A stretch of 7,836 nucleotides of DNA from a virus (lineage: Duplodnaviria > Heunggongvirae > Uroviricota > Caudoviricetes): IMG/VR virus record IMGVR_UViG_2695420687_000010, positions 1-7,836 of that record. One strand, 5' to 3'. Position 1 is the first letter of the stretch; every line of letters starts with the position of its first letter. Below are positions 5,694-7,064 of the stretch, one piece after another. The notes under the pieces are model-generated. The model was given only the letters and a program-made list of their open reading frames with translations, was not told the DNA's origin and searched no databases. The position numbers and the translations under genes are program-made.

Positions 5694-6874
5694 TTATTTG
5701 CCAGTGAGCGCCTTGATGGCTGCCACATCTTCCAGCACACAGTCAAAACGATGGAAAGCCAGAAATGCCACCTGATCAAACTCAGCATAACGCTCAACCA
5801 GACGTTTCAGTTCCATATAAGTAACGCGGCGAATGATAAAGCGGTTGAAATCCCCCAGGAAAATGAATTTTTTTCCAGTACCAATCCCGTCAATAGCCTG
5901 ATCAATAACATAAGGGATCCCCAGCACAGTAGCCGGCGTACCGCCTGCAATATCCGGCAGCCATAACGGGCGTTTCTGTCCATCCTCCATCTCTTCAATA
6001 GTCTGCAATGTGGCATCATTGAATGCCCAGCGGTATTTCGGCCCACCACGATATGCCGGATCAATGGCATGTTTCAGGGCATTCATTTCTTTCCAGGTGA
6101 AAGCGGCAGAGGCTGCAGTCTGGATGGTTCCCGTCACCGACGCTGCCAGCCCTTTTGGCTGTAACGGTGATCCCGTTCCGGTCCCCTGAACCAGATATTT
6201 TGCCTCTCCACGACCAATACGCTGGGCAATACGGTTTGCCAGATAAGATTCAATATCCACCCCACTGTCCTGGAGCAGCTCATTGGACACACGAATTATT
6301 TTTGATGACAGCTTTTTAGCCCCCAGAATAGCGGTCCCGAACGTCACATCCTGTTCCGTTGCGGCTGTATTTTCCGCCAGCAGTTCGCCCTCTTCAGTCG
6401 TGCCATCAGACGTTGACCAGGTGATATCCTGCCCGGTTGATGTGGTCAGAAGTTGCGCCACACTGGCAATCCCGCCATAAGCCTTCATGGTGTCAATGAT
6501 TTTGTTACGCATCTGCGTGGGCACCGTATATCCGCCCTGAGAATCCGTTGTTACACTCTGAGCCCGCAGTTCACGCATCAGATTACGCTCTTCAGCATTC
6601 AGTTCTGCAAATCCGGCACGCAGAAAACGGTTAAATGCCGCAGCACGCTTCTCTTCCACCGCCTTTTTCCCGTTCTCCGCCTCATTATTCTGGCGCTCTT
6701 CCGGCCCGGACTCATCCACATATGCCTGATCCTGACGGCGCAACTCTTCTTCACGGGCGATTTGCTCATCCAGCGCATCCAGCTCAGCTTTCGCCCTGTT
6801 CCACTCTGCCCGTTGCTCATCAGTCCATGCGTTATCACCAATTTTTTCATGCAGTGCACGCATATCCTTTGCAA
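5694..6874 (-). CDS. HK97-family phage major capsid protein, 5'-truncated at breakpoint (about 393 codons present)
   Basis: Translation ..KDMRALHEKIGDNAWTDEQRAEWNRAKAELDALDEQIAREEELRR..AAFNRFLRAGF..LNAEER.. (coiled-coil delta domain) followed by ..YRWAFNDATLQ...FIFLGDFNRFIIRRV..YAEFDQVAFLAFHRFDCVLEDVAAIKALTGK* is characteristic of HK97-fold major capsid proteins. Stop TAA at 5694-5696. The N-terminus is replaced by holC sequence beyond the ambiguous base at 6875. Confidence 0.85.
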
Positions 6875-6875
6875 N

Positions 6876-7064
6876 ACTTTCTACCGGACGCGCCCACAGG
6901 GCTTCATCCAGCCGGTAAGCCTGCTGTTCATCTTCACAGGCGATGAGTACGCGCTTACCGTTGCGCCAACGTTCTGCGGCAATTTCACACACCAGCTGCT
7001 CAACGGCGCTTAAGCCATCGACGGTGGTGTCATTGTCCAGAAGGTAGAACGTTGCGTTTTTCAT
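6876..7064 (-). CDS. holC: DNA polymerase III chi subunit, 5' fragment (first ~63 codons), fused in frame to the capsid ORF
   Basis: From ATG 7062-7064: MKNATFYLLDNDTTVDGLSAVEQLVCEIAAERWRNGKRVLIACEDEQQAYRLDEALWARPVES matches recalled E. coli HolC residues 1-63. The next codon contains N at 6875 (ntt, compatible with Phe64 of HolC); after it the sequence is capsid, not HolC. Confidence 0.85.

What the first reader, a model, noticed from the sequence alone, without database searches (positions are those of the whole stretch)
6860..7064. Breakpoint 3: in-frame holC(1-63)::major-capsid chimeric ORF across a single N
The holC start codon, RBS and first 63 codons are intact and read straight through the N at 6875 into the capsid gene from within its delta (scaffold) domain, giving one continuous 456-codon ORF. 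If real, this would express a chi-subunit/capsid fusion from the holC promoter, which is biologically implausible and would also inactivate an important replisome gene. An artefactual join that happens to keep frame is the more likely explanation.
Basis: partly seen in the sequence, partly recalled or inferred. Interest (0 to 1): 0.45.

Follow-up and report, generated by a model that had tools for sequence, protein, structure and literature searches.

The report
Assembly chimera, not a gene fusion
The holC–capsid "fusion gene" is really in the deposited sequence, but it sits on a short draft contig stitched together from at least eight unrelated pieces of an Escherichia albertii genome, a prophage and a plasmid, so it is almost certainly an assembly artefact and not a gene.

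Summary
On the minus strand an ATG at 7064 opens a 456-codon ORF. It consists of holC codons 1-63, one codon holding the N at 6875, then residues 14-405 of an HK97-type major capsid protein.

- **Source.** The window is the whole 7,836-bp contig CDRK01000176.1 of draft assembly GCA_000936005.1.
- **Patchwork.** It tiles into at least eight unlinked pieces: narZ, manA-ydgA (99.6% to E. albertii), a 52-nt dinF fragment, a 4.7-kb prophage block, holC-pepA, a 153-nt rnhB fragment, a roughly 100-nt fimbrial fragment and plasmid dynamin-family genes. That makes seven junctions, three of them marked by N.
- **The junction.** The two parents share only CAA. The N sits at the first base where they differ (T in the phage, A in holC).
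- **No independent support.** No junction-spanning match was found in 5,426 complete E. coli genomes, in the GTDB species representatives or in the metagenome contigs.
- **Frame.** Keeping frame has a 1-in-3 chance.

I could not check the other contigs of the assembly or its reads, which would be decisive. Interest is very low.

The parts
5694..7064 (-). Chimeric 456-codon ORF: holC 1-63, then NTT, then capsid 14-405, then stop. It is called as a gene in the public record.
6876..7064 (-). holC (DNA polymerase III chi) codons 1-63. The native gene has 147 codons, and the remaining 84 are absent from the contig.
   Evidence: 63/63 aa identical to the holC of L001. The DNA is 98.6% identical over 6872-7218. 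Pfam PF04364 matches profile positions 1-55 of 135 only.
6875..6875 (.). A single uncalled base (N) at the first position where the two parent sequences differ. The phage parent has T and the holC parent has A (plus strand).
6872..6874 (.). CAA, the only sequence shared by both parents at the join (3-nt microhomology, about a 1/64 chance).
5694..6874 (-). HK97-type major capsid protein gene lacking its first 13 codons. Residues 14-405 and the stop are present.
   Evidence: 392/392 aa identical to WP_000766109.1. Pfam Phage_capsid scores 237 bits.
2199..5693 (-). Remainder of the prophage block, in transcription order: head-tail connector, head closure, HK97-gp10-like, tail completion, Ig-domain tail tube protein, tail assembly chaperones G and T, and the first 156 codons of the tape measure gene. 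The block is cut inside a gene at both ends.
   Evidence: 99.87% identical to an E. coli prophage (L002) over 2199-6874
7065..7337 (-). Native holC upstream region: an intergenic spacer with one REP-type palindromic unit (7116-7218) and the last ~39 codons of pepA (7221-7337).
7327..7479 (-). Internal 153-nt fragment of rnhB. It is joined to pepA without an N, inside an imperfect 11-nt overlap that encodes 'LD(I/T)' in both genes.
7480..7580 (-). About 100 nt of an LpfD-like fimbrial gene, in frame with its neighbours.
7581..7836 (-). Plasmid segment: the 3' end of one dynamin-family gene and the first ~51 codons of the next.
   Evidence: 99-100% identical to E. coli plasmids
2147..2198 (-). 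52-nt internal fragment of dinF, lying between the N at 2146 and the tape measure gene.
146..2145 (+). manA (from about codon 30) and ydgA (5' part) of Escherichia albertii. The N at 2123 replaces exactly one base of collinear sequence.
   Evidence: 99.6% to E. albertii NBRC 107761 and 87% to E. coli
1..142 (+). Internal fragment of narZ (nitrate reductase Z alpha subunit). It is followed by NNN and is not in frame with manA.

Best explanation
The holC::capsid ORF is a by-product of a chimeric draft contig. A 4.7-kb prophage contig, broken inside the capsid and tape measure genes, was abutted to a ~0.45-kb holC-pepA piece. The join was left as a single N, meaning no read-supported base was called across it. 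By a 1-in-3 chance the two genes are in the same frame, so a gene caller reads through the N and reports one 456-aa protein.

The real genome most likely has an intact holC between pepA and valS. It most likely also has an intact capsid gene preceded by its prohead protease, at a distant prophage site.

- **Shown:** the identity and extent of both parents, the N, the 3-nt overlap, the patchwork nature of the whole contig, and the absence of the junction elsewhere.
- **Inferred:** that the join was made by assembly, scaffolding, gap-filling or chimeric library molecules. Which of these, and which software, is unknown.
For: 1. **Source.** The window is a complete 7,836-bp contig of draft assembly GCA_000936005.1.
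2. **Patchwork.** It tiles into at least 8 unlinked pieces:
   - narZ, 1-142
   - E. albertii manA-ydgA, 146-2145
   - dinF, 2147-2198
   - prophage, 2199-6874
   - holC-pepA, 6872-7337
   - rnhB, 7327-7479
   - fimbrial gene, about 7480-7580
   - plasmid dynamin-family genes, 7581-7836
   Several pieces are internal gene fragments of 52-153 nt.
3. **Distance between parents.** In E. coli strain 190, which holds both parents, the prophage block lies at 1.92 Mb and holC at 4.29 Mb.
4. **The junction itself.** The phage match ends at 6874 and continues natively with T-GGTGTTTCG, towards the capsid start and the protease gene. The holC match runs to 6872 and continues natively into holC codon 65 onward. 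Only CAA is shared, and the N is the first discordant base.
5. **Not seen elsewhere.** None of 5,426 complete E. coli genomes has a place covering at least 80% of window 6600-7220. The 39-nt junction pattern has 0 hits in the GTDB species representatives and 0 in the metagenome contigs. No protein in the search covers both halves.
6. **Contrast with a real variant.** A genuine disruption of this same capsid gene by an IS3-family insertion is seen on 8 independent contigs from NCBI, ENA and Logan.
7. **What the Ns mean here.** The N at 2123 replaces exactly one base of collinear ydgA. Gap-filling tools extend both edges base by base and close a gap only if the extensions overlap (PMC3446322).
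Against: - I have no reads and no other contigs of the assembly, so the join is not directly disproved.
- Four of the seven joins carry no N, so they were written as continuous sequence by whatever made the contig.
- Four of seven joins are same-strand and in frame (binomial p about 0.018 at 1/6 each). That is somewhat more than chance and is only partly explained by in-frame microhomology at pepA|rnhB.
- The protein search was shallow: only 304 candidates were scored, and the window's own protein was not returned.
Confidence: 0.95

Rival explanations
1. The junction is a real rearrangement. Illegitimate (microhomology-mediated) recombination between a prophage capsid gene and holC in this E. 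albertii isolate fused chi residues 1-63 to the capsid protein, and the N is merely a low-quality base call.
For: - A 3-nt microhomology (CAA) lies at the join.
- The ORF is in frame and keeps the native holC upstream region.
- Elsewhere on the contig an N stands for exactly one base (2123).
Against: - It would have to be one of seven such rearrangements in 7.8 kb. Those leave 52-153-nt internal fragments of dinF and rnhB and truncated narZ, manA, ydgA and pepA.
- The junction lies in capsid codon 13-14 and not at a phage attachment site.
- It has not been observed in any other genome or metagenome searched.
- A 3-nt match is expected by chance in 1 of 64 cases.
- From established knowledge of the chi subunit, not tested here: the truncation would remove the C-terminal part that binds SSB.
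Confidence: 0.03
2. The contig reflects real chimeric DNA molecules made in the laboratory. Possible routes are ligation or PCR template-switching concatemers of short fragments during library preparation, or a mixed or contaminated sample. On this reading the assembler faithfully assembled them and made no join error of its own.
For: - Several pieces are fragment-sized or read-sized (52, about 100, 142, 153 and 256 nt).
- Four joins carry no N.
- The pepA|rnhB join lies in an imperfect 11-nt overlap, as expected for template switching.
Against: - The three N-marked joins, including the one in question, show that no continuous read consensus existed there.
- A single chimeric molecule would normally fall below assembly coverage cut-offs. 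This is an inference.
- For the question asked, this is a sub-type of 'artefact' and leads to the same conclusion about the ORF.
Confidence: 0.3
3. The join is a prophage insertion into holC: a prophage integrated within holC, and the junction is an att site.
For: A prophage block lies directly next to a truncated host gene.
Against: - The phage side of the join is inside the major capsid gene, in the middle of the morphogenesis module. There is no integrase or att-type repeat nearby.
- The other end of the block is cut inside the tape measure gene and joined to a dinF fragment.
- In the related complete genomes whose neighbourhood I read, the capsid gene is preceded by the protease, portal and terminase genes.
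Confidence: 0.01

Closest known systems
Chimeric or mis-joined contigs in short-read draft assemblies, with residual N placeholders left by scaffolding or gap filling
   Same: - A short contig made of unlinked loci.
- Ns at joins.
- A prophage piece broken inside genes, as happens at repeat boundaries.
- A junction not seen in related genomes.
- Gap fillers extend both edges up to a residual gap (PMC3446322).
   Different: Four of the seven joins have no N, and some pieces are only 52-153 nt. That is more fragmentary than a simple two-contig mis-scaffold. The software used is unknown.
holC, the chi subunit of DNA polymerase III (Pfam PF04364)
   Same: The start codon, the upstream region and residues 1-63 are identical to a native holC. 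The native neighbour pepA lies upstream.
   Different: Only 63 of 147 residues are present (profile positions 1-55 of 135). The rest of the gene and the downstream valS are absent from the contig.
HK97-type major capsid protein with an N-terminal delta (scaffolding) region (Pfam PF05065)
   Same: Residues 14-405 are identical to a prophage capsid protein. The gene is followed by the usual connector, head closure and tail genes.
   Different: The first 13 codons and the upstream prohead protease, portal and terminase genes are missing.
Genuine disruptions of this capsid gene, such as the IS3-family insertion that gives the 121-aa product P0016
   Same: A truncated or hybrid capsid ORF created by a junction inside the gene.
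   Different: The IS junction is seen on 8 contigs from independent sources, with a recognisable mobile element next to it. The holC junction is seen once and has no mobile element.

Membership tests
Genuine genomic junction or natural gene fusion | Called bases run continuously across the junction | tested here: not met
   The junction base 6875 is N. It is the first base at which the two parents differ.
Genuine genomic junction or natural gene fusion | The same junction is present in independent genomes or assemblies | tested here: not met
   0 of 5,426 complete E. coli genomes, 0 hits in the GTDB species representatives, 0 in the metagenome contigs and no spanning protein (a shallow search).
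Genuine genomic junction or natural gene fusion | The flanking sequence is otherwise collinear with related genomes | tested here: not met
   There are six more joins between unlinked loci within 7.8 kb.
Genuine genomic junction or natural gene fusion | Reads, read pairs or amplicons span the junction, and no second intact holC exists in the isolate | not testable with these tools
Assembly or scaffolding chimera | One short contig combines loci that are far apart or on different replicons in related complete genomes | tested here: met
   The contig combines narZ, manA-ydgA, dinF, a prophage, holC-pepA, rnhB, a fimbrial gene and a plasmid. In strain 190 the prophage lies at 1.92 Mb and holC at 4.29 Mb.
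Assembly or scaffolding chimera | Joins are marked by N placeholders | tested here: met
   Three of the seven joins are marked (143-145, 2146 and 6875). Four are unmarked.
DNA polymerase III chi subunit (PF04364) | Full-length chi domain | tested here: not met
   The Pfam score of 48.4 bits is above the 25.4 cut-off, but the match covers only profile positions 1-55 of 135. Only 63 of 147 residues are present.
HK97-type major capsid protein (PF05065) | Complete capsid domain | tested here: met
   237 bits, covering profile positions 1-279 of 280. Residues 14-405 are identical to WP_000766109.1.
HK97-type major capsid protein (PF05065) | Native start codon, with the prohead protease gene upstream | tested here: not met
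   The first 13 codons and the protease gene are replaced by holC sequence.
Prophage integration junction (att site) | The junction lies at the phage attachment site next to the integrase, with a short direct repeat at both prophage ends | tested here: not met
   The junction is inside capsid codon 13-14. The other end of the block is inside the tape measure gene. No relevant repeats were found.

The most novel reading that the evidence does not exclude
The contig faithfully records real DNA from the isolate: a mosaic of short, mostly same-strand and in-frame fragments of housekeeping, prophage and plasmid genes, generated by serial microhomology-mediated template switching. The chi(1-63)-capsid ORF would be one of its products. 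The only hint in this direction is that 4 of the 7 joins are same-strand and in frame (p about 0.018).
Probability: 0.02. Interest if true: 0.45.

Novelty: not a real feature. Interest (0 to 1): 0.03.

Why it matters
It matters only as a data-quality point. The public record carries a called 456-aa "protein", plus a second four-part chimeric ORF at 7221-7769. These can contaminate protein databases and clustering, and can lead to false calls of gene fusion or of holC loss.

If the fusion were real it would be a curiosity: a truncated replisome subunit fused to a phage capsid. Nothing supports that reading.

Tried and rejected
- **Junction in other sequence collections.** I searched the complete E. 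coli genomes with a junction-spanning stretch (window 6600-7220), and the GTDB species representatives and the metagenome contigs with the 39-nt junction pattern. Nothing was found.
- **Protein search.** I ran a 126-aa query centred on the junction to find independent chimeric proteins, for example from Logan assemblies of the same reads. No hit covered both halves. Only 304 candidates were scored and the window's own protein was not returned, so this is a weak negative.
- **Cluster look-up.** The exact chimeric protein was reported as not in the collection, although look-up of encoding contigs had found it. This was uninformative.
- **Intact HolC in the same assembly.** None of the HolC hits I read has the window's N-terminal variant.
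- **Truncated capsid proteins.** I looked up two of these (P0016, P0015) in case they came from the same assembly. They did not. They are an IS3 insertion and a frameshift in other samples.
- **Literature.** A search for the assembly or WGS accession gave no paper, so the assembly pipeline stays unknown.
- **RNA families and repeats.** The Rfam scan of the window found nothing. The repeat search around the junction found only short matches, most likely chance ones. One is a 15/17-nt match between the capsid gene (6745-6761) and holC (6928-6944), which does not coincide with the join.
- **Prophage att-site reading.** Rejected on anatomy.

Full report
**Observation**

The window has Ns only at 143-145, 2123, 2146 and 6875. 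On the minus strand an ATG at 7064 opens an ORF that runs to a stop at 5694-5696, which is 456 codons.
- Codons 1-63 (7064..6876) are 63/63 identical to the chi subunit HolC of an E. coli chromosome (L001, WP_000786396.1). The 46 nt upstream are identical too.
- Codon 64 is NTT.
- The remaining 392 residues are identical to residues 14-405 of a 405-aa HK97-type major capsid protein (L002, WP_000766109.1).
- Pfam sees DNA_pol3_chi on residues 1-62 (profile 1-55 of 135) and Phage_capsid on residues 177-454.

The one refinement is that the capsid part begins only 13 residues in, so nearly the whole N-terminal delta region is present.

**Anatomy of the junction**

The prophage match ends at 6874. 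The native phage sequence goes on with T GGTGTTTCG..., that is, capsid codons 13 to 1 and then the prohead protease gene.

The holC match reaches 6872. Native holC has A at the N position and goes on into codon 65 and beyond.

The two parents share only CAA (6872-6874), a 1-in-64 coincidence. The N is exactly the first base where they disagree. Given that the two genes lie on the same strand, the frame is kept with probability 1/3.

**What the window is**

The chimeric protein is on record once, on NCBI contig CDRK01000176.1 of assembly GCA_000936005.1. That contig is 7,836 bp long, so it is the whole window. The contig is a patchwork:

| Window | Content | Closest match |
|---|---|---|
| 1-142 | narZ internal fragment | 94.4% to E. 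coli |
| 143-145 | NNN | |
| 146-2145 | manA (5'-truncated) and ydgA (3'-truncated); the N at 2123 replaces exactly one collinear base | 99.6% to Escherichia albertii NBRC 107761, 87% to any E. coli |
| 2146 | N | |
| 2147-2198 | 52-nt internal piece of dinF, opposite strand to ydgA | 88.5% to E. coli |
| 2199-6874 | prophage block from tape measure codon 156 back to capsid codon 14 | 99.87% to E. coli prophages |
| 6875 | N | |
| 6872-7337 | holC 5' part, a REP-containing spacer and the pepA 3' end | 98.6% (holC part) and 96% (pepA part) to L001 |
| 7327-7479 | 153-nt internal piece of rnhB | 90% to E. coli |
| about 7480-7580 | piece of an LpfD-like fimbrial gene | 76% to E. coli |
| 7581-7836 | plasmid-borne dynamin-family genes | 99-100% to E. 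coli plasmids |

That is seven joins among eight unlinked pieces, three of them marked with N. In E. coli strain 190, which carries both parents of the join in question, the prophage block is at 1.92 Mb and holC at 4.29 Mb.

**Is the junction seen anywhere else?**

- None of 5,426 complete E. coli genomes has a place covering at least 80% of window 6600-7220. All of them match holC, and the listed matches stop at 6872 or 6877.
- The 39-nt junction pattern, with N as a wildcard, has no hit in the GTDB species-representative genomes or in the metagenome contigs.
- A protein search with a 126-aa query centred on the junction returned HolC fragments and capsid fragments only. None covered more than 63% of the query. 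That search scored only 304 candidates and did not return the window's own protein, so it is a weak negative.
- By contrast, a genuine disruption of this same capsid gene by an IS3-family element is found on 8 contigs from NCBI, ENA and Logan.

**Explanation**

The simplest account is an assembly-level chimera. A prophage contig broken inside genes, as happens where prophage paralogues create repeat boundaries, was strung together with small pieces from elsewhere. The join to the holC piece was left as a one-N placeholder.

Gap-filling programs extend both edges of a scaffold gap base by base, and they close the gap only if the extensions overlap (PMC3446322). That would explain sequence running right up to a residual N, and also the one-base N inside collinear ydgA. 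I could not establish which software made this assembly, so this step is inference.

Laboratory chimeras, from ligation or template switching during library preparation, may account for the unmarked joins between very short pieces. The pepA|rnhB join lies in an imperfect 11-nt overlap that encodes LD(I/T) in both genes. Either way the ORF is not a gene of the organism.

**Rivals**

- *A real microhomology-mediated fusion.* This would have to be one of seven such events in 7.8 kb, and those events leave tiny internal fragments of housekeeping genes. I give it about 3%.
- *A prophage att-site junction.* This is excluded by anatomy, because the join is in capsid codon 13-14 and the other end of the block is inside the tape measure gene.

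**One loose end**

Four of the seven joins are same-strand and in frame: capsid|holC, pepA|rnhB, rnhB|fimbrial and fimbrial|dynamin. The binomial p is about 0.018 at 1/6 per join. In-frame microhomology explains one of them. The rest may be chance.

**What I could not do**

I could not inspect the other contigs or the reads of GCA_000936005.1. That is the decisive test, and it is set out under next steps.

**Verdict**

- This is not a real biological feature. It is ordinary draft-assembly noise.
- Interest is about 0.03.

Noticed in passing
window 7221-7769 (- strand): A second chimeric ORF of 182 codons reads in one frame through four unrelated pieces: the dynamin-family N-terminus (about 51 aa), an LpfD-like fimbrial fragment, RnhB residues about 103-153 and the PepA C-terminus. 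None of these joins is marked by an N.
   Followed up: yes
all seven joins: about 142/146, 2146, 2198/2199, 6875, 7327-7337, 7479/7480, 7580-7589: Four of the seven joins are same-strand and in frame (binomial p about 0.018 at 1/6 each). The pepA|rnhB join lies in an in-frame shared 'LD(I/T)' motif (an imperfect 11-nt overlap). The others are unexplained and may be chance.
   Followed up: partly
window 2123 and 2124-2145: The N at 2123 replaces exactly one base (A in the E. albertii type strain) in otherwise collinear ydgA. Only 22 nt separate it from the next N at 2146. So Ns in this record can stand for single bases as well as for joins.
   Followed up: yes
window 146-2145 versus 6872-7218: The chromosomal pieces come from Escherichia albertii: manA-ydgA is 99.6% identical to the type strain and only 87% to any E. 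coli. The holC piece is 98.6% identical to two E. coli strains (SCPM-O-B-9504 and SCPM-O-B-7615) and about 94% to the other strains listed. This may reflect an inter-species exchange at holC in those two strains.
   Followed up: no
window 3018-3024 (- strand), between the ORFs at 3015-3386 and 2713-3003: The tail assembly chaperone gene ends in ...GTT AAA AAA AAG TAG, which contains the slippery heptamer A AAA AAG just before the stop. A -1 shift there reads straight into the ATG (3003) and frame of the downstream Phage_tail_T ORF. This is the classic G/GT programmed frameshift of long-tailed phages. I read it from the sequence and it is known biology.
   Followed up: partly
window 7116-7218; L001 1841-2257: The holC-pepA spacer holds one REP-type palindromic unit here. 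The same unit is repeated three times in tandem in E. coli SCPM-O-B-9504, so its copy number varies. The hairpin arms are at 7171-7200.
   Followed up: no
L089-L094 (other samples): The same prophage capsid gene is interrupted after about codon 109 by an IS3-family element in several E. coli genomes and metagenomes (8 contigs). This gives a 121-aa hybrid product.
   Followed up: partly
window 3401-4105 (- strand): The tail tube protein carries a C-terminal immunoglobulin-like domain (Pfam Ig_2/Ig_3, residues about 154-233). This is a common decoration in lambdoid and HK97-like phages.
   Followed up: no
window 6745-6761 and 6928-6944: A 15/17-nt direct match between the capsid gene and holC, spaced 183 nt (61 codons) apart. 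It does not coincide with the join and is most likely chance.
   Followed up: partly
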